Shown: positions 1-4,100 of the stretch, in pieces
How positions within the stretch are numbered: position 1 is the stretch's first letter
Layout: each line of letters opens with the position of its first letter
Assembly: GCA_016214605.1 (NCBI GenBank)
Contig: JACROD010000014.1
Coordinates: 107,074-158,570 of the forward strand
Length of the DNA stretch: 51,497 bases
Source: Candidatus Kaiserbacteria bacterium
Lineage (GTDB): Bacteria; Patescibacteriota; Minisyncoccia; Phycocordibacterales; UBA2100
Reading direction: 5' to 3'
Translations under genes and position numbers: made by a program
Notes under the pieces: model-generated
Databases searched by the model: none
Seen by the model: only the letters and a program-made list of their open reading frames with translations
What the model was told of the DNA's origin: nothing

Positions 1-1
1 C

Positions 2-304
2 GCCTGGAGTGTCGTGCGCAACACGCCGCAGGTCACCGGATTCGTCGGTACCGCCAATCAGGCGGTACCACTTGAGCAGACCGAAGTCGACAAGATCCTC
101 AAGCGCGCCGGCGGCGATACGGTCCGTCACTCGATCGATCTCGCGGCAGGCGAGGCGGTCATCATCATCGACGGTCCGTTTAAGGACCTCGAAGGCAAGG
201 TAGGGGAGGTCGACGAAGAGCGCGGCAAGGTCAAGGTGATGGTCCCGATGTTTGGCCGCGAGACTCCCGTAGAGCTCGAAGCTGATCAGGTCCAGCGGGT
301 TTGA
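2..304 (+). CDS. nusG: NusG transcription elongation/antitermination factor, C-terminal part (5' end outside window)
   Basis: Open from the window edge. Contains ...WSVVRNTPQVTGFVG... followed by the KOW segment GEAVIIIDGPFKDLEGKVGEVDEERGKVKV. Lies upstream of rplK as in the canonical cluster. Confidence 0.85.
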   Translation, partial: AWSVVRNTPQVTGFVGTANQAVPLEQTEVDKILKRAGGDTVRHSIDLAAGEAVIIIDGPFKDLEGKVGEVDEERGKVKVMVPMFGRETPVELEADQVQRV

Positions 305-328
305 CAAATAAAATATATAGTGTATTAT
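301..328 (+). promoter_or_regulatory. Putative sigma70-type promoter for the 379-672 ORF
   Basis: ttgaca (301-306), 16-nt spacer, tattat (323-328). Confidence 0.35.
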
Positions 329-378
329 TGCAATAGGTTTGCGAAATTTGGCCGTTTGGCCAGCTAGGAGGAACCGCG

Positions 379-672
379 ATGTATAAGCGCCAAACCTTGA
401 GGAGAACTCCGAAGCCGACCGCCATACAAGTAGCTTCGGCGGAGTATGCAAAGTTTTCGACCAAGGATAAGCTCGATGCCCTGCTACGCAGTTTGCAAAA
501 TTCAATTGCGAATGCGGAATCGGCGGTGCGAGGACTTAAAGAGAATCCCACAGGATTTTTGGCGGAATCTAATCTTGAAAGTGCCGCAAGCGCTATCCGT
601 AGCGCGCAAGGCTCTCTCAAGGGGATGAGAGAACTTCAGACGCCAATTGGTCGACAGCCCAACTTTCCATGA
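379..672 (+). CDS. Hypothetical small protein (97 aa), predicted helical
   Basis: ATG preceded by a strong aggagg Shine-Dalgarno. Followed by an intrinsic terminator. No recognisable family. Confidence 0.55.
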   Translation: MYKRQTLRRTPKPTAIQVASAEYAKFSTKDKLDALLRSLQNSIANAESAVRGLKENPTGFLAESNLESAASAIRSAQGSLKGMRELQTPIGRQPNFP

Positions 673-681
673 GTTTTTGTG

Positions 682-731
682 CCCCGCCCCTCATGGCAGC
701 TATGCCGCAGAGGGTCGGGGATTTTCTTTTT
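682..731 (+). terminator. Rho-independent terminator
   Basis: GC-rich stem ccccgcccctc / gagggtcgggg followed by attttcttttt. Confidence 0.7.
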
Positions 732-739
732 GCCGAAGA

Positions 740-767
740 TTGACAACTTTTTAAGTGTTGCTACAAT
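740..767 (+). promoter_or_regulatory. Promoter of a small RNA. It shares the module TTGACAA-N5-TAAGTGTTGCTACA with 23420-23447.
   Basis: ttgaca (740-745), 16-nt spacer, tacaat (762-767). 14 identical nt (taagtgttgctaca) are shared with the second copy. Confidence 0.55.
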
Positions 768-773
768 GACAAC

Positions 774-835
774 GTCAAGTCCGGGTTCTATATGAGTCCT
801 GAAAATCCGACGCATTCCGCGTTGGATTTTCGCTT
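774..835 (+). ncRNA. Candidate small RNA (~60 nt). Its 5' 15 nt are complementary to 941-955.
   Basis: Predicted start is 7 nt after the -10 box. Terminator-like hairpin aaaatccgacgc/gcgttggatttt (802-830) is followed by a T run. 774-788 pair with 941-955 (15 bp, one G-U). Confidence 0.4.
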
Positions 836-863
836 TTTAAGACAAATACTCTATACTGCGGCC

Positions 864-992
864 CGTGGAGCCATCTCAAGGAGCTACGGCACCGAGGTGC
901 AGAATTGAGCACAATTCTGCGGGGGCCACCTCATGGTGAGGAATCCGGACTTGACACTCGGATAGAGGGGCTCGATACCCCTTGGCTCCACG
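864..992 (+). ncRNA. Structured RNA with a tRNA-like (tmRNA-TLD-like) acceptor/T-arm module; class unknown
   Basis: 10-bp terminal helix 864-873/983-992. T-arm-like 5-bp stem with 7-nt loop ctcgata (966-982). t874 sits at the U8 position. Helix 892-896/957-961 encloses two hairpins (899-920, 929-941). No D arm and no 7-nt anticodon loop. Confidence 0.4.
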
Positions 993-994
993 TC

Positions 995-1025
995 AAAAAG
1001 CATCTCACGTACGAGATGCTTTTTG
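995..1025 (+). terminator. Rho-independent terminator of the tRNA-like RNA
   Basis: Stem gcatctc/gagatgc with an A run upstream and ttttt downstream. Confidence 0.7.
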
Positions 1026-1039
1026 TTTGTAAGGAATGC

Positions 1040-1067
1040 TTGAAATCTCCAGCCGTTCCTGTATAGT
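1040..1067 (+). promoter_or_regulatory. rplK promoter (leaderless transcript predicted)
   Basis: ttgaaa (1040-1045), 16-nt spacer, tatagt (1062-1067). The ATG lies 8 nt after the -10 box and there is no SD. Confidence 0.5.
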
Positions 1068-1075
1068 ACCCCGAC

Positions 1076-1498
1076 ATGGCAAAAGAAGTCACCAAGATCA
1101 TAAAGCTCCAGCTCCCTGCGGGTGCTGCTACGCCGGCTCCTCCGGTGGGTACCGCTCTGGGCCCTGCGGGCGTCAATATCGGCGAATTCGTCAACCAATT
1201 CAACACCCAGACCCGACCACTCGCCGGTTCGATCCTCCCGGTCTTGATGCATGTCTACAAGGACCGCACCTTCTCCTTCATCGTCAAGAAGCCGCCGGCG
1301 TCCAAGCTCGTGCTCAAGGCCGCAGGTGTCGAGAAGGGCTCGGCGAAGCCACATGCCCAAAAGATCGGCAAGATCACCAAGGCTCAGCTCGAAGAGATTG
1401 CCAAGGACAAAATGGAAGACATGAATGTCAACGACCTCGACCACGCCAAGTCCGTCATCGCCGGTACTGCCCGCAGTATGGGAGTAGAGGTAGTCTAA
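1076..1498 (+). CDS. rplK: 50S ribosomal protein L11
   Basis: [43 protein letters not shown]... is a typical L11 N-terminal domain. 140 aa. Confidence 0.95.
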
Positions 1499-1513
1499 TC
1501 TTCAAATATCAAG

Positions 1514-1544
1514 AAACAGCGCGGATACTTCCGCGCTGTTTTCG
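1514..1544 (+). terminator. Rho-independent terminator after rplK
   Basis: Hairpin aacagcgcgga...tccgcgctgtt followed by ttt. Confidence 0.6.
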
Positions 1545-1582
1545 TATATGATCCGCGGTATGATATGAATTACAATACTCGT

Positions 1583-3334
1583 ATGAACACAGCTCAAGAT
1601 ATCAAACAGGCTATTGCTCGGGCGTTAGAGAACGTTGGTATTCCGACTGCGTCAGAGTCGATAATGTTGGAACATCCCGCAGAGCTTTCACGCGGGGATT
1701 ATGCGACTAATGTCGCTATGCAAGCTTTCGGTCGTATCGCCAAATCGCAAAATCAGTATCATAAAGATGATACTACGGTTCCAAAAATAAAGACTGGAAA
1801 TTTCGTTTTGGACGGGTTTAAGAATCCAGAACAACTTGCTGAGAAGCTAGTTGCTACTATGGGAAATATCGAAGGAGTTTCAAGTATCGTTGCAGTTAAA
1901 CCGGGCTTCATCAATTTCACCCTTGCATCGCAAACGATCGCCGCATCGCTCGACTCTGCGCGCACGCAGGATATGTGGGGGAATAATGAGATGCGTGCTG
2001 GGCAGAAGATAATGGTCGAGTATACACAGCCAAACCCTTTCAAAGAATTTCACATCGGACATCTCATGGGCAATGTCAACGGTGAATCGATCGCGCGACT
2101 CATGCAATACGTTGGCGCCGAGGTCCTTCGAGTGAATTACCAAGGCGATGTGGGTGTGCATGTGGCATGTGCCATTTGGGGTATCAAGAAGCTCGATATT
2201 GATCCATCGACAGCAGATGAATTTGGCCAGGCATACAGCACAGGAGCAATGGCATATAAGGCGGATCCACAAGCAAAAAATGAAATCGATGAAATCAATA
2301 AAAAAGTTTACGATCGAAGCGATCCGGAAATTAATACTCTCTACGATGCCGGGCGAAAAAAATCACTTGAAGCGTTTGAAAGAATCTATGTGATTCTCGG
2401 GACGACATTCGATCATTATTTCTTTGAAAGTGAGACAGGTCCTATTGGCAAGGAGATCGTGCTCGCGCACCCCGACATCTTTCCCGAATCCGATGGTGCC
2501 CGTATCTTCCGCGGTGAAGAGTATGGACTACATACGCGCGTGTTTATCAATGCCACGGGCCTGCCCACCTACGAAGCAAAAGAAATCGGTCTCCAGCGGC
2601 TCAAAAAGGATCTCTATCCGGATACAACCCTGCTTATTATCGAAACTGCCAATGAGATTGACGAGTATTTTAAGGTGATACACAAAGTTCTTGAGCTTAT
2701 ATATCCTGATATTGCAGCCCAGATGAAGCATGTGAGTCATGGATTAATGAAACTCTCGACCGGTAAAATGAGTTCGCGCACGGGCAATGTCATCACGGGC
2801 GAATCACTTTTGAATGAGCTTGCGGAGGCCGCCAAGGCGCGCGCCGCAGAAAGTCGCGCGGATGATACGGAGAAGTTGGCCGAGCAGATCGCCGTCGCCG
2901 CCATCAAATACCAGATCCTCAAACAAGGTTCGGGCAAAGACATCGTCTTTGATCGCGAGCGAGCGCTTTCGCTCGAAGGGGATTCGGGTCCGTATTTGCA
3001 ATACGCCTACGCACGCACGAATGCGATTATCGCAAAAGCACACGAGCAGGGGATCGTGCCGATGATCGATCAGAGTGCTATGCCGAGCGAAGTCACACGA
3101 CTGATCCATCGTTTTCCCGAGATCGTGGAGCACGCTTCGCATGAGCTTGAGTCGCACATCGTGACGCAGTACCTCACACATCTCGCGAGTTCATTCAACA
3201 GCTGGTACGCGCAGGAGCAGATACTCGACGGTACGCCTGCTGCAGCGCACAAGGTCGCCATCGTCGAAGCCGTCAATCGCACACTCAAAAATGGCCTCTG
3301 GATCCTCGGCATCACTGCGCCGGAGAAGATGTAG
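1583..3334 (+). CDS. argS: Arginine--tRNA ligase
   Basis: HIGH-type motif FHIGHLMGN, KMSKS-type motif KMSSRTGN, and a C-terminal ...APEKM. The ORF opens at 1565. ATG 1583 is preferred because a tacaat -10 box lies 6 nt upstream. Confidence 0.9.
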   Translation: MNTAQDIKQAIARALENVGIPTASESIMLEHPAELSRGDYATNVAMQAFGRIAKSQNQYHKDDTTVPKIKTGNFVLDGFKNPEQLAEKLVATMGNIEGVSSIVAVKPGFINFTLASQTIAASLDSARTQDMWGNNEMRAGQKIMVEYTQPNPFKEFHIGHLMGNVNGESIARLMQYVGAEVLRVNYQGDVGVHVACAIWGIKKLDIDPSTADEFGQAYSTGAMAYKADPQAKNEIDEINKKVYDRSDPEINTLYDAGRKKSLEAFERIYVILGTTFDHYFFESETGPIGKEIVLAHPDIFPESDGARIFRGEEYGLHTRVFINATGLPTYEAKEIGLQRLKKDLYPDTTLLIIETANEIDEYFKVIHKVLELIYPDIAAQMKHVSHGLMKLSTGKMSSRTGNVITGESLLNELAEAAKARAAESRADDTEKLAEQIAVAAIKYQILKQGSGKDIVFDRERALSLEGDSGPYLQYAYARTNAIIAKAHEQGIVPMIDQSAMPSEVTRLIHRFPEIVEHASHELESHIVTQYLTHLASSFNSWYAQEQILDGTPAAAHKVAIVEAVNRTLKNGLWILGITAPEKM

Positions 3335-3421
3335 AAAAATGTCCGGAGGTACAAACAAGTGCTTGGATCGGTAAAGATCTTGTGGCATTATCATACATAG
3401 TGCAACCTATAGGAGGAGACT

Positions 3422-3775
3422 ATGCTCAGTACACTTGTTTTGTATATGCCGCCCCCCGGCAGTCCTGTAGCAGGGACCTTGTCGATCCTGATCGCGATCA
3501 CGATCGCGTTTTGGGGACCTATTCTCCTGCTTGTTCGGCGGGTCAGACATCGGCCGATCCTGATCGAGGAGGACTGGAGAAATCTTTTCCTCAAAAGACA
3601 GGAAGAATCGGGCGGGGCGATCACGTTGGATCATGTCCTGTTGGAGCGGGCACGAGGTCATCCGGATGTGATCCGGGCCATGAAAGCGCGGGATCGCGGC
3701 GGCCAAGTCTGGTTTCGCGACCGAAAGGGAAGGGTGGCCAGATTGCCTCTCGACGATCTTCGAAAGGCTGCTTGA
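3422..3775 (+). CDS. Hypothetical membrane-anchored protein (117 aa)
   Basis: aggagga SD upstream, N-terminal TM segment, shared terminator downstream. Confidence 0.5.
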   Translation: MLSTLVLYMPPPGSPVAGTLSILIAITIAFWGPILLLVRRVRHRPILIEEDWRNLFLKRQEESGGAITLDHVLLERARGHPDVIRAMKARDRGGQVWFRDRKGRVARLPLDDLRKAA

Positions 3776-3780
3776 AAACA

Positions 3781-3814
3781 AATAGGCATCCGGTGCGCCG
3801 GATGCCTATTTTCT
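3781..3814. terminator. Bidirectional intrinsic terminator between convergent genes
   Basis: Perfect hairpin aataggcatccgg tgcg ccggatgcctatt, flanked by A and T runs. Confidence 0.75.
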
Positions 3815-4100
3815 AATGGAGGACAAGCATATGTCCTATGACCTCGAATTCGCGCGGCTGGATCAAGTGTGTATGGGCGACCCGCACCTGATAGAGCGGT
3901 CCGTCGAGTGTCCGATACCAAAAGCCGAGAAATTTTCGCAGTTCCGGGAATTCCGGCGCGAAGTCGTATTCTTGCCAGATGTATGTCTGCAAGATATCTC
4001 GGTAGTCGGGTAGGCGATACACTATCTCCGCTGTCGTAAGACCATAGCCGGCGAGTATTCTTGCGAATTCCGGATCTGTCGCAGGATTCTTTTTCATCAC
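3813..4100 (-). CDS. Usg-family protein (95 aa)
   Basis: GYGLTTAEIVYRLPDYRDILQTYIWQEYDFAPEFPELRKFLGFW...VRVAH matches my memory of the Usg-like family signature. aggagg SD present. Confidence 0.55.
   Translation of the reverse strand: MMKKNPATDPEFARILAGYGLTTAEIVYRLPDYRDILQTYIWQEYDFAPEFPELRKFLGFWYRTLDGPLYQVRVAHTHLIQPREFEVIGHMLVLH

What the first reader, a model, noticed from the sequence alone, without database searches (positions are those of the whole stretch)
740..1025. A pair of small RNAs upstream of rplK: a ~60-nt RNA whose 5' end is fully complementary to a tRNA/tmRNA-TLD-like RNA encoded just downstream
**First RNA.** A good promoter (740-767) predicts a start near 774. A terminator-like hairpin lies at 802-830 and is followed by a T run.

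**Second RNA (864-992).**
- It is closed by a 10-bp helix. Within it, 867-873/983-989 plus A990 look like a 7-bp acceptor stem with a discriminator base.
- Directly adjacent is a 5-bp stem with the 7-nt loop CTCGATA. This fits the T-loop pattern xTCRAxx.
- t874 occupies the U8 position.
- A 5-bp helix (892-896/957-961) sits where an anticodon stem or tmRNA P2 would be. It encloses 60 nt with two hairpins.
- There is no D arm.
- A strong terminator follows at 995-1025.

**Link between the two.** nt 774-788 pair with 941-955 over 15 consecutive positions, with one G-U pair.

**Assessment.**
- The second RNA is not a canonical tRNA. It is 124 nt long with no anticodon loop and A3-U70 rather than G3-U70.
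- It is far too short for tmRNA or RNase P.
- It may be a new tRNA-like regulatory RNA with a cognate antisense partner, or a single pseudoknotted RNA if the first hairpin does not terminate transcription.
Basis: partly seen in the sequence, partly recalled or inferred. Interest (0 to 1): 0.6.

Follow-up and report, generated by a model that had tools for sequence, protein, structure and literature searches.

The report
Alanine tRNA mimic with antisense partner
The nusG-rplK spacer of this tiny groundwater bacterium (Candidatus Kaiserbacteria) holds two small RNA genes, a 69-base look-alike of alanine tRNA and a short RNA built to pair with it. The pair recurs and co-evolves in many related bacteria and matches nothing I found in Rfam or in the papers searched.

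Summary

**What is there**
- The tRNA-like RNA is nt 922-990 (69 nt). It has a G3:U70 / A73 alanine-type acceptor stem, a small D arm, an arm with an enlarged loop, and a T arm.
- Nt 864-921 are a 5' leader.
- Nt 874-920 of that leader are a 47-nt dispersed repeat with about 10 copies in this genome. It is absent from all 20 other distinct close homologues.

**Relatives**
- Covariance-model searches found 45 loci (42 distinct) across Patescibacteria.
- G3:U70 is kept in 42 of 42 distinct sequences, while the other stem pairs covary.
- In 39 distinct loci a separately promoted, terminated sRNA lies next to the mimic. Its first 13-21 nt pair with the mimic's arm and loop, and the pairing is kept by compensatory changes.

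**Context**
- The locus is an insertion. The nusG-rplK spacer is 9-190 nt in ten of the eleven same-genus loci where nusG lay in reach (1420 nt in the eleventh) and 771 nt here.
- No protein gene travels with the module.

**Reading**
- Most likely the sRNA's free 5' tail docks on a U-turn loop and unzips the arm of an alanine-accepting tRNA/tmRNA-TLD mimic.
- What the mimic does is unknown, and no RNA evidence for this organism was available.
- Rfam, ARAGORN and the papers searched do not describe the pair.
- This scan has noted the same module before on other genomes.

The parts
740..767 (+). Promoter of the antisense sRNA (TTGACA, 16 nt, TACAAT, TG-extended)
   Evidence: 11 of 12 matches. 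About 28 of the 31 family loci read have a TTGACA-N17-TAnAAT box ending 4-9 nt before the start of the complementary segment.
774..838 (+). Antisense sRNA, about 65 nt. It has a 5' tail (774-782 free in the fold), hairpin 783-799, terminator hairpin 800-832 and a U run. Nt 774-789 are complementary to 940-955.
   Evidence: fold: 9 free 5' nt, then two hairpins; the mimic is the only perfect target in the genome. The transcript ends are inferred, not measured.
851..856 (+). Probable -10 box (TATACT) of the tRNA-like gene. It has no TG extension and no good -35.
   Evidence: Read from the sequence. All 14 close homologues read have a TATAAT-like box 8-10 nt before the leader, and several are TG-extended. 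Not found by the two-hexamer scan.
864..873 (+). 5' leader segment (C-GUGGAG-CCA), an inverted copy of the 3' end. It can pair with 983-992.
   Evidence: MFE of the precursor. GUGGAG plus two pyrimidines can pair with positions 67-74 in all 21 distinct members of this subfamily: the six GUGGAG pairs in 21 of 21, the two pyrimidine pairs in 18 and 19 of 21. Both strands are conserved, so there is no covariation.
874..920 (+). 47-nt dispersed structured repeat inserted in the leader. Module A is 874-899. Module B is hairpin 899-920 with loop AGCA.
   Evidence: about 10 copies on both strands of this genome, with compensatory changes in the hairpin; one copy in a same-genus genome; absent from all homologues, whose linker is 4-7 nt against 51 nt here; a DNA contig bridges 751-970 without a difference.
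922..990 (+). tRNA-like RNA core (69 nt):
- acceptor 922-928/983-989 with G924:U987 (G3:U70)
- D-like arm 929-932/938-941, loop AUGGU
- arm 943-948/958-963 with 9-nt loop 949-957
- T arm 966-970/978-982, loop CUCGAUA
- discriminator A990
   Evidence: Model R3 scores it 83.2 bits. Alignments A5, A6 and A7. Pair counts. The cloverleaf is essentially the MFE of the 69-mer plus CCA. Other contigs of the same groundwater samples match 922-991 only.
940..955 (+). Target site of the sRNA: the end of the D arm, the 5' strand of the arm, and the loop through the conserved C
   Evidence: the two-RNA cofold is about 17.7 kcal/mol more stable than the two RNAs apart.
995..1025 (+). Hairpin with flanking A and T runs, the probable two-way terminator that closes the module before the rplK promoter (1040-1067)
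   Evidence: 13-bp hairpin; promoter 1040-1067. Not flagged by the simple terminator scan.

Best explanation
Nt 740-1025 are one copy of a small, RNA-only, two-gene module that recurs in Patescibacteria.

**Gene 1 (promoter 740-767, RNA about 774-838)** makes a roughly 65-nt sRNA with a free 5' tail.

**Gene 2 (-10 box 851-856)** makes a precursor whose mature product is most likely the 69-nt RNA 922-990.
- It is a compact cloverleaf with the alanine identity set: G1-C72, G2-C71, G3:U70 and A73.
- It has a miniature D arm that carries the GG of a D loop, and a normal T arm.
- In place of an anticodon arm it has a 6-bp stem with a 9-nt loop.
- In Rfam terms its relatives score best against the tRNA-like domain of tmRNA.

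**Inferred steps**
1. RNase P removes the leader.
2. The 3' end is trimmed and given CCA, as for every tRNA of this genome.
3. AlaRS charges the RNA.
4. The sRNA's 5' tail nucleates on the loop, which follows a U-N-R U-turn rule. Pairing then spreads into the stem to give a 16-bp duplex that destroys the arm, switching the mimic off or marking it for cleavage.

In this window the leader has also been invaded by a 47-nt dispersed repeat.

**What the mimic does once charged is not known.** My leading guess is that it interferes with, or substitutes for, tmRNA-type ribosome rescue, and that the pair behaves as a mobile, self-controlled (toxin-antitoxin-like) unit.
For: **Shown here**
- Homologues. 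A single-sequence model found 5 loci with the same plan in 150 genomes of the family. Improved models found more in order and class samples and in named Uhr-, Yanofsky-, Magasanik- and Azambacteria MAGs. The total is 45 loci, 42 distinct.
- Cloverleaf. 95.3% of cells are paired and 171 cells are changed on both sides, against 45.5 in shuffles. Slid controls give 47-65% paired.
- On an independent MAFFT alignment, acceptor plus T stems are 99.7% paired. G3:U70 holds in 30 of 30, and positions 4-7 covary.
- Partner sRNA. 39 distinct loci have a 13-21-nt complement. The 12 core columns are 95-100% paired, most of them with three or more pair types, against 62% with shuffled partners.
- In about 28 of the 31 loci read the sRNA has its own promoter and terminator. 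It lies upstream in 27 loci and downstream in 18.
- Inside the duplexes G-U outnumbers A-C by 29 to 13, which favours RNA pairing on this strand.
- The loop rule is N-U-N-R-N-C-A.
- In the fold, the W sRNA has 9 free 5' nt. The cofold gains about 17.7 kcal/mol.
- The mimic is the tail's only perfect target in the genome.
- The module is an insertion. The nusG-rplK spacer is 9-190 nt in ten of the eleven same-genus loci where nusG lay in reach (1420 nt in the eleventh) and 771 nt here.
- No conserved protein neighbour.
- tRNA genes of this genome do not encode CCA. AlaRS, SmpB and a normal tmRNA are present.
- Compact relatives hit Rfam tmRNA at 20-42 bits (E 6e-5 to 4e-14), below the gathering score of 47.
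- In two loci the mimic is followed 3 nt later by a tRNA-Tyr(GUA) gene, which fits tRNA-type processing.

**From established knowledge**
- G3:U70 with A73 is the AlaRS identity set, and acceptor/T minihelices are charged.
- U-turn loops speed antisense RNA pairing.

Against: - No transcript data. Only DNA contigs of this organism were found, so both RNAs, their ends, RNase P cleavage at G922 and charging are all inferred.
- This copy deviates from its relatives in three ways:
  - a 47-nt insertion in the leader
  - C instead of U at T-loop position 54, unique among the 45
  - a -10 box without the TG extension seen in several of the close relatives
  It may therefore be weakened or decaying.
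- W itself gives no Rfam tmRNA or tRNA hit at E up to 10.
- The conserved leader can pair with the 3' acceptor strand (8 pairs; the six GUGGAG pairs in 21 of 21, the other two in 18 and 19 of 21). It competes with the G3:U70 stem, and its role is unexplained.
- The UUCGAC D-loop motif of the tmRNAs I compared (this genome's; E. coli and B. subtilis from memory) is absent, so SmpB binding cannot be assumed.
- The counts use an alignment fitted to the model.
Confidence: 0.72

Rival explanations
1. One RNA, not two. Transcription from 740-767 reads through the 800-832 hairpin to 1025, and the 774-789/940-955 helix forms in cis, giving a roughly 250-nt structured RNA.
For: Both parts are on the same strand here. 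The 774-1030 fold uses this helix and is very stable (z = -8.8). The tRNA-like gene's own promoter is weak in this copy.
Against: - The 800-832 hairpin is a good intrinsic terminator: 14 bp followed by a T run.
- In 18 of 45 loci the order is reversed. Where the flanks were read, the sRNA has its own consensus promoter placed so that transcription starts at the complementary tail.
- All 14 close relatives read have a separate -10 box before the leader.
Confidence: 0.07
2. The 69-nt RNA is a working decoder. It would be an alanine-charged tRNA with a non-alanine anticodon (here UGA in the 7-nt core CUUGACA), so it mistranslates or suppresses. The sRNA masks its anticodon.
For: - The identity set for AlaRS is invariant.
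- The loop has an invariant U at the position of U33, followed by three variable bases.
- Arm plus D stem is about as long as the anticodon-D stack of a tRNA.
Against: - The loop breaks anticodon-loop rules. C sits at the position of the universal purine 37 in 36 of 38 sequences. G sits at position 32 in a third. Loop sizes are 7-11 nt.
- Nucleotides 8 and 9 are missing.
- ARAGORN and Rfam's tRNA model reject it.
- The three variable loop bases differ from locus to locus.
Confidence: 0.08
3. This particular copy is a decaying relic of the module, disabled by the repeat insertion, and has no present function.
For: - It is the only one of 21 distinct subfamily members with an expanded linker, 51 nt against 4-7 nt.
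- It has a unique C at T-loop position 54.
- Its -10 box lacks the TG extension.
Against: - The 16-bp complementarity, the sRNA promoter, both terminators, all four stems and the G3:U70/A73 set are intact.
- The insertion lies in a leader that would be removed.
- R3 scores the core at 83.2 bits, second highest of the 45.
Confidence: 0.15
4. The complementarity acts on DNA. The two 16-nt arms are inverted repeats of a small mobile or invertible DNA element, and the tRNA-like part is a degenerate tRNA or attachment-site remnant.
For: - The module is an insertion with a patchy distribution.
- A dispersed repeat sits inside it.
- tRNA-like ends are typical of integration sites.
Against: - No recombinase or any other conserved protein lies within 1.5 kb in 28 loci.
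- The cloverleaf covaries and keeps AlaRS identity, which a relic would not do.
- G-U exceeds A-C in the duplexes.
- One arm always sits exactly at a promoter's start site.
Confidence: 0.04

Closest known systems
Tag-less ('no CDS') tmRNA forms that consist of the tRNA-like domain only: mycobacteriophage DS6A, Mallomonadaceae plastids, jakobid mitochondria (PMC11915505)
   Same: - About 65-70 nt.
- Alanine-type acceptor stem with G3:U70 and a T arm, but no tag reading frame.
- Compact relatives of this RNA score best against Rfam tmRNA, with the whole middle of the model skipped.
- Some relatives share the acceptor stem GGGGGUG/CACCUCC with this genome's own tmRNA.
   Different: - The scores are below Rfam's gathering score, and W itself does not hit.
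- It has a closed stem-loop arm and a D stem instead of the open P2 connection.
- It lacks the UUCGAC D-loop motif.
- It occurs alongside a normal tmRNA and SmpB.
- Above all it comes with a dedicated antisense sRNA, which is not reported for those forms in the paper read.
tRNA-Ala
   Same: G1-C72, G2-C71, G3:U70 and A73. T loop of the UUCRAUN type. GG in the D loop. No encoded CCA, like the genome's tRNAs.
   Different: - No nucleotides 8 and 9, and a 5-nt D loop.
- The loop is 7-11 nt, with C where purine 37 should be, and has no alanine anticodon.
- ARAGORN and Rfam's tRNA model do not call it.
Antisense RNA pairs that start with a 5' tail docking on a target loop: RNA-IN/RNA-OUT of IS10, hok/sok-type and plasmid copy-control RNAs, and the YUNR U-turn rule (own knowledge)
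   Same: - A free 5' tail complementary to a loop with a U-N-R motif.
- Pairing that continues into the stem.
- A strong promoter on the antisense RNA.
- Cognate specificity that differs from copy to copy.
   Different: The target is not an mRNA, and no reading frame is controlled. Both partners are non-coding and are encoded side by side on the same strand, not overlapping.
RNA-only (type VIII) toxin-antitoxin pairs such as SdsR/RyeA and CreT/CreA (own knowledge)
   Same: Two small RNA genes with no protein. Patchy, mobile-looking distribution, and several orthogonal copies in some genomes.
   Different: Toxicity of the mimic is untested. CreA needs Cascade. None of the known RNA toxins is a tRNA or tmRNA mimic.
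REP/BIME- or MITE-like dispersed structured repeats (for nt 874-920 only)
   Same: A short hairpin-bearing unit. About 10 copies on both strands, mostly at gene borders. Modular, with compensatory stem changes.
   Different: No transposase or RAYT link was examined. No target duplication is visible at this site. The sequence has no Rfam match.

Membership tests
Uncatalogued Patescibacteria module 'tRNA-Ala-like RNA plus dedicated antisense sRNA' | 66-71-nt compact cloverleaf with G1-C72, G2-C71, G3:U70 and A73 | tested here: met
   W 922-990 scores 83.2 bits with model R3. G924:U987 and A990 are read from the sequence. G3:U70 holds in 42 of 42 distinct members.
Uncatalogued Patescibacteria module 'tRNA-Ala-like RNA plus dedicated antisense sRNA' | Adjacent same-strand sRNA with its own promoter and terminator, whose first 13-21 nt are complementary to the arm and loop | tested here: met
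   774-789 pairs with 940-955; the same layout in about 28 of the 31 loci read.
Uncatalogued Patescibacteria module 'tRNA-Ala-like RNA plus dedicated antisense sRNA' | Intermolecular pairing kept by compensatory changes | tested here: met
   the 12 core columns are 95-100% paired, most with three or more pair types. Cognate 83% against 62% for shuffled partners.
Canonical tRNA (Rfam RF00005, ARAGORN) | Recognised by tRNA models. Has U8/N9 and a 7-nt anticodon loop with pyrimidine 32, U33 and purine 37. | tested here: not met
   No ARAGORN call. No RF00005 hit at E up to 10. The acceptor abuts the D stem. C at position 37 in 36 of 38.
tmRNA (Rfam RF00023) | tRNA-like domain with G3:U70 | tested here: inconclusive
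   Relatives hit RF00023 at 20-42 bits, below the gathering score of 47. W gives no hit.
tmRNA (Rfam RF00023) | mRNA-like domain with a tag reading frame and pseudoknots | tested here: not met
   The RNA is 69 nt with a closed arm. The genome's real tmRNA (391 nt, with a 25-codon tag frame) is on another contig, next to smpB.
AlaRS substrate | G3:U70, A73 and G2-C71 in a 7-bp acceptor stem stacked on a T arm | tested here: met
   by sequence only.
AlaRS substrate | Actual aminoacylation with alanine | not testable with these tools
   Needs an in vitro charging assay. AlaRS is present in the genome.
Type I toxin-antitoxin | Small, usually hydrophobic toxin peptide whose mRNA is the antisense target | tested here: not met
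   The ORFs over the region (792-908, 905-1066) are not hydrophobic. The only shared 'ORF' across loci is a stop-free frame over the RNA gene itself.
YrlA / bacterial Y RNA | Occurs with a Ro60/Rsr (TROVE) protein and matches the Rfam model | tested here: not met
   No TROVE domain in the genome, which is 96.8% complete. No Rfam hit.
Ribosomal-protein leader of the L11 operon | Conserved structure directly upstream of rplK in relatives, co-transcribed with it | tested here: not met
   Relatives have spacers of 9-190 nt without it. A terminator (995-1025) and a separate promoter (1040-1067) lie between it and rplK.
6S RNA, SRP RNA, RNase P RNA | Match to the Rfam model | tested here: not met
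   No hit in the region at E up to 10. RNase P RNA is on another contig. 6S and small SRP RNA were not found anywhere in the genome with RF00013 and RF00169. The multi-branch 69-nt fold does not resemble them.

The most novel reading that the evidence does not exclude
The module is an RNA-only addiction or defence unit. The alanine-charged, tag-less tmRNA/tRNA mimic would jam ribosome rescue or translation in a cell that depends on trans-translation. Its cognate antisense sRNA would be the antidote. Each copy's private pairing code would make copies orthogonal, which would explain tandem copies with different codes and the patchy, insertion-like spread.
Probability: 0.22. Interest if true: 0.9.

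Novelty: categorically new. Interest (0 to 1): 0.72.

Why it matters
If the two RNAs are made as predicted, this is a widespread, gene-sized module built only of RNA, in which a chargeable tRNA/tmRNA mimic is held in check by its own antisense RNA.

No such pairing of a tRNA-like RNA with a dedicated antisense partner is in Rfam 15 or in the papers I could search.

It would add a new class of RNA-RNA regulation to the translation apparatus of the candidate phyla radiation, bacteria with minimal genomes and few known regulators.

It also gives a simple test system: two short RNAs, AlaRS, RNase P, SmpB and compensatory mutants.

In addition, it offers an explanation for some 'tmRNA without a tag' entries in tmRNA catalogues.

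For annotation, it shows how a dispersed repeat inside a leader can disguise a small RNA gene.

Tried and rejected
- **Rfam 15.** Searched at E up to 10 over 1-4000 and at gathering scores over the whole window. Nothing lies at 864-992. The only hit nearby is a weak rnk-leader match at 731-839 (E 0.36), driven by the terminator.
- **ARAGORN.** No tRNA or tmRNA in the window.
- **BLAST-type DNA search of 735-1030 in 40 relatives.** No homologue. It only exposed the dispersed repeat.
Rejected, because they lie in or at the inserted repeat.
- **SRP, 6S, RNase P, tmRNA and YrlA readings.** Rejected.
- **rplK leader reading.** Rejected.
- **Conserved protein partner.** None within 1.5 kb in 28 loci.
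- **ORF 379-672 (97 aa), just upstream.**
  - Only weak sub-threshold Pfam and PHROG matches.
  - No tblastn match in 13 same-genus loci.
  - No link to the module was established.
- **Pattern scan of genome contigs with the subfamily's first 18 specified bases.**
  - Of the 20 loci I then scored, 14 were true members.
- **The same pattern in viral contigs.** Two matches, neither confirmed by the model.
- **Sequencing runs.**
  - Only groundwater DNA contigs hold the locus.
  - The two RNA runs listed hold only a relative's rplK part.
  - There is therefore no evidence either way on transcription.
- **Two-piece tmRNA idea (sRNA as the coding piece).** I saw no conserved reading frame in the sRNAs. 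The conserved stretch after the tail is the 3' strand of a hairpin that mirrors the mimic's stem.
- **Literature.** Five full-text searches found no description of the pair.
Full report
**Setting.** The window is contig C16:107074-158570 of a 1.09-Mb, 34-contig genome. Earlier notes of this scan call it Candidatus Kaiserbacteria. The features near the finding are:
- nusG ends at 304.
- A 97-aa ORF with its own promoter occupies 379-672.
- rplK is 1076-1498 and argS follows at 1565.
- The finding lies in the 403-nt gap between the ORF and rplK.

**Checking the observation.** Most of the described features are there.
- The scan tool finds TTGACA-16-TACAAT at 740-767 (11 of 12) and a 14-bp terminator-like hairpin with a T run at 800-832.
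- Folding shows a 13-bp hairpin at 995-1025.
- The long-range complementarity is real and runs to 16 positions, 774-789 with 940-955.
- The 10-bp closing helix 864-873/983-992 and the T-arm-like hairpin are in the minimum-energy fold of 864-992. That fold has z = -4.3 against shuffles.
- Rfam 15 at E up to 10 and ARAGORN find nothing that explains the region.

**A dispersed repeat sits inside the 'second RNA'.** A DNA search of 735-1030 in 40 relatives found no homologue. It did show that nt 874-920 recur about ten times in this genome, on both strands.
- The unit has a 26-nt module and a 22-nt hairpin whose stem shows compensatory changes between copies.
- Some copies carry a third, 57-nt module between the two.
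- One copy occurs in a same-genus genome.
- Contigs from the groundwater samples break at 873/874 and 917-920, as expected of a repeat. One DNA contig bridges 751-970 without a difference, so the insertion is real in the population.

**Finding homologues.** The searches went in four steps.
1. A covariance model of 864-992 alone (R1) found five loci with a much shorter RNA in 150 genomes of the same family.
2. All five have the same plan as the window: a consensus promoter, an sRNA whose first 17-18 nt are complementary to the middle of the tRNA-like RNA, a terminator, a -10 box, and the tRNA-like RNA. The complementary sequences differ from locus to locus on both sides.
3. Aligned over the whole locus, the window alone carries the 46-47-nt block.
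4. Improved models (R2, R3) found further members in order- and class-level samples. A pattern scan of species-representative genomes added 14 in MAGs named Uhr-, Yanofsky-, Magasanik- and Azambacteria, among others.

The total is 45 loci, 42 of them distinct. The module is sporadic:
- 5 of 150 genomes in the family
- at least 4 of 150 in the order sample
- at least 12 of 150 in the class sample

The order and class counts are lower bounds, because only the top-scoring matches were inspected.

**The right register.** In every member of the window's subfamily an invariant GGGGCCA lies 4-7 nt after a conserved GUGGAG.
- GGGGCCA pairs perfectly with the 3' strand UGGCUCC and gives G3:U70.
- In the more distant members the stem sequence changes on both sides (GGGCCUG/CAGGUCC, GGGGGUG/CACCUCC, GGGCACG/CGUGUCC), but G1-C72, G2-C71, G3:U70 and A73 never change.
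- On a MAFFT alignment of 30 sequences, acceptor and T stems are 99.7% paired, with 72 cells changed on both sides against 19.8 in shuffles.
- On the model-fitted alignment of 45 sequences the full cloverleaf is 95.3% paired, with 171 double changes against 45.5. Slid controls give 47-65%. This alignment leans towards the model.

The mature RNA in the window is therefore 922-990, 69 nt. Its parts are:
- acceptor 922-928/983-989
- a 4-bp D-like stem with loop AUGGU, directly after the acceptor and without nucleotides 8 and 9
- a 6-bp arm with a 9-nt loop
- a T arm
- discriminator A990

The 69-mer plus CCA folds into this cloverleaf as its minimum-energy structure. Other contigs of the same samples resemble the window from 922/923 to 991 only, which marks the same boundary.

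**The leader.**
- Nt 864-921 are a 5' leader.
- Its GUGGAG plus two pyrimidines can pair with positions 67-74 in all 21 distinct subfamily members: the six GUGGAG pairs hold in 21 of 21, the two pyrimidine pairs in 18 and 19 of 21. Both strands are conserved, so there is no covariation. The neighbouring positions pair no better than chance.
- More distant members lack this leader.
- Its role is open. It may be a precursor fold that competes with the acceptor stem.
- Without the repeat, the window's linker would be 4 nt, within the family's 4-7 nt. With it, the linker is 51 nt.

**The sRNA.**
- In 39 distinct loci the best complement to the arm in the flanks is 13-21 nt.
- In about 28 of the 31 loci whose flanks were read, it begins 4-9 nt after a TTGACA-N17-TAnAAT box and is followed by a terminator.
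- It lies upstream in 27 loci and downstream in 18.
- In the register of the model alignment, the 12 core columns of the intermolecular helix are 95-100% paired, most with three or more pair types. Overall 83% are paired, against 62% when partners are shuffled.
- G-U is more frequent than A-C inside the duplexes (29 to 13). This gives modest support for RNA-level pairing on this strand.
- The window's sRNA folds with nine free 5' nt, a 6-bp hairpin that hides the rest of the antisense segment, and the terminator.
- The two-RNA cofold is about 17.7 kcal/mol more stable than the separate folds.
- The mimic is the tail's only 16-of-16 target in the genome.

**The loop.**
- Across members the loop reads N-U-N-R-N-C-A. 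The U, the purine two bases later, and the CA are nearly invariant.
- This fits the U-turn (YUNR-type) loops that antisense RNAs use for fast docking.
- It does not fit an anticodon loop. C stands at the place of purine 37, G at position 32 in a third of members, and loops are 7-11 nt.

**Context.**
- The nusG-rplK spacer is 9-44 nt in six of the eleven same-genus loci where nusG lay in reach, 123-190 nt in four and 1420 nt in one. It is 771 nt here. The ORF and the RNA module are therefore insertions at a variable spot.
- The ORF has no match in those relatives and only sub-threshold family hits.
- No protein gene recurs next to the module in 28 loci.
- Two loci have a tRNA-Tyr gene 3 nt after the mimic.
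- Some genomes carry two or three modules with different pairing codes, partly in tandem.

**Comparison with known RNAs.**
- The genome has a normal tmRNA next to smpB, an RNase P RNA and AlaRS. It has no TROVE protein.
- Its tRNA genes do not encode CCA, and neither does the mimic.
- Compact relatives hit Rfam's tmRNA model at 20-42 bits (E 6e-5 to 4e-14), with the whole middle of the model skipped. That is below the gathering score of 47. In these loci the tmRNA model beats the tRNA model.
- The window's own copy does not hit.
- Some relatives share the acceptor stem of this genome's tmRNA.
- The tmRNA database paper lists tag-less forms of about 65 nt in plastids and in phage DS6A. The DS6A form inhibits the endogenous tmRNA in E. 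coli. The paper also lists a CPR lineage that 'may lack' a tag frame (PMC11915505).
- None of the papers found describes an antisense partner.

**Mechanism, with its status.**
- Shown by comparative evidence: a conserved alanine-type cloverleaf, a cognate sRNA, co-evolving pairing, and independent promoters.
- Inferred: processing by RNase P at G922, CCA addition, charging by AlaRS, docking of the 5' tail on the U-turn loop, strand invasion, and loss of the arm.
- Speculative: the mimic competes in ribosome rescue or translation, and the pair acts as a self-controlled, mobile unit.

**This copy.** It is intact in all conserved elements but has three oddities: the repeat in the leader, a C at T-loop position 54 that is unique among the 45, and a plain -10 box. 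I put about 15% on it being a decaying copy.

**Relation to earlier notes of this scan.** The same module was reported before on other genomes. I used those notes as leads only. The homologues, covariation counts and register given here were derived here.

Noticed in passing
window 874-920; other copies at G000 C16:6318-6363, C16:87283-87329, C7:200-246, C8:9418-9489, C2:8515-8556, C5:22544-22585, C13:363-473, C18:57774-57798, C11:5674-5692, C12:31754-31771: A modular dispersed repeat family.
- It has a 26-nt module (TCTCAAGGAGCTACGGCACCGWGGTG), a 22-nt hairpin with loop AGCA and compensatory stem changes, and an optional 57-nt middle module with about 8 copies of its own.
- One copy starts at the last base of tRNA-Val.
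- The copy at C16:87283 sits at the tip of a 15-bp flanking inverted repeat.
- No Rfam match.
   Followed up: partly
window 301-672: A 97-aa ORF with a near-consensus promoter (301-328) and a low-GC leader lies in the nusG-rplK spacer. It has no match in 13 same-genus loci and only sub-threshold hits (DUF6468, a PHROG tail protein). It is probably a separate insertion at the same variable spot.
   Followed up: partly
window 1076-3334: rplK is followed by a two-way terminator and argS, not by rplA. argS also follows rplK in most same-genus relatives, so the usual rplK-rplA pair is split in this genus.
   Followed up: partly
L039:186-351 and L026:1501-1670: In two relatives the tRNA-like gene lies between rpoD and a tRNA-Tyr(GUA) gene, with only 3 nt before the tRNA. 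This suggests co-transcription and tRNA-type processing.
   Followed up: partly
L090 (three copies on one 6.4-kb contig with L112), L087 (two copies 0.7 kb apart), L085: Some genomes carry two or three modules close together. Each has a different arm sequence and a matching sRNA, like orthogonal pairs.
   Followed up: partly
L131, L157, L164, L192: Contigs of MAGs labelled 'uncultured Gammaproteobacteria' carry typical members of the window's subfamily at 41-51% GC. These are either mislabelled or misbinned Patescibacteria contigs, or the module reaches beyond that phylum.
   Followed up: no
whole genome G000: ARAGORN finds tRNA-Ala(CGC) and tRNA-Ala(GGC) but no tRNA-Ala(UGC) among 41 tRNAs. 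6S RNA and small SRP RNA were not found with RF00013 and RF00169. The assembly is 96.8% complete, so absence is not shown.
   Followed up: no
window 971: The T loop of this copy starts with C (CUCGAUA), where all 44 other family members have U.
   Followed up: yes
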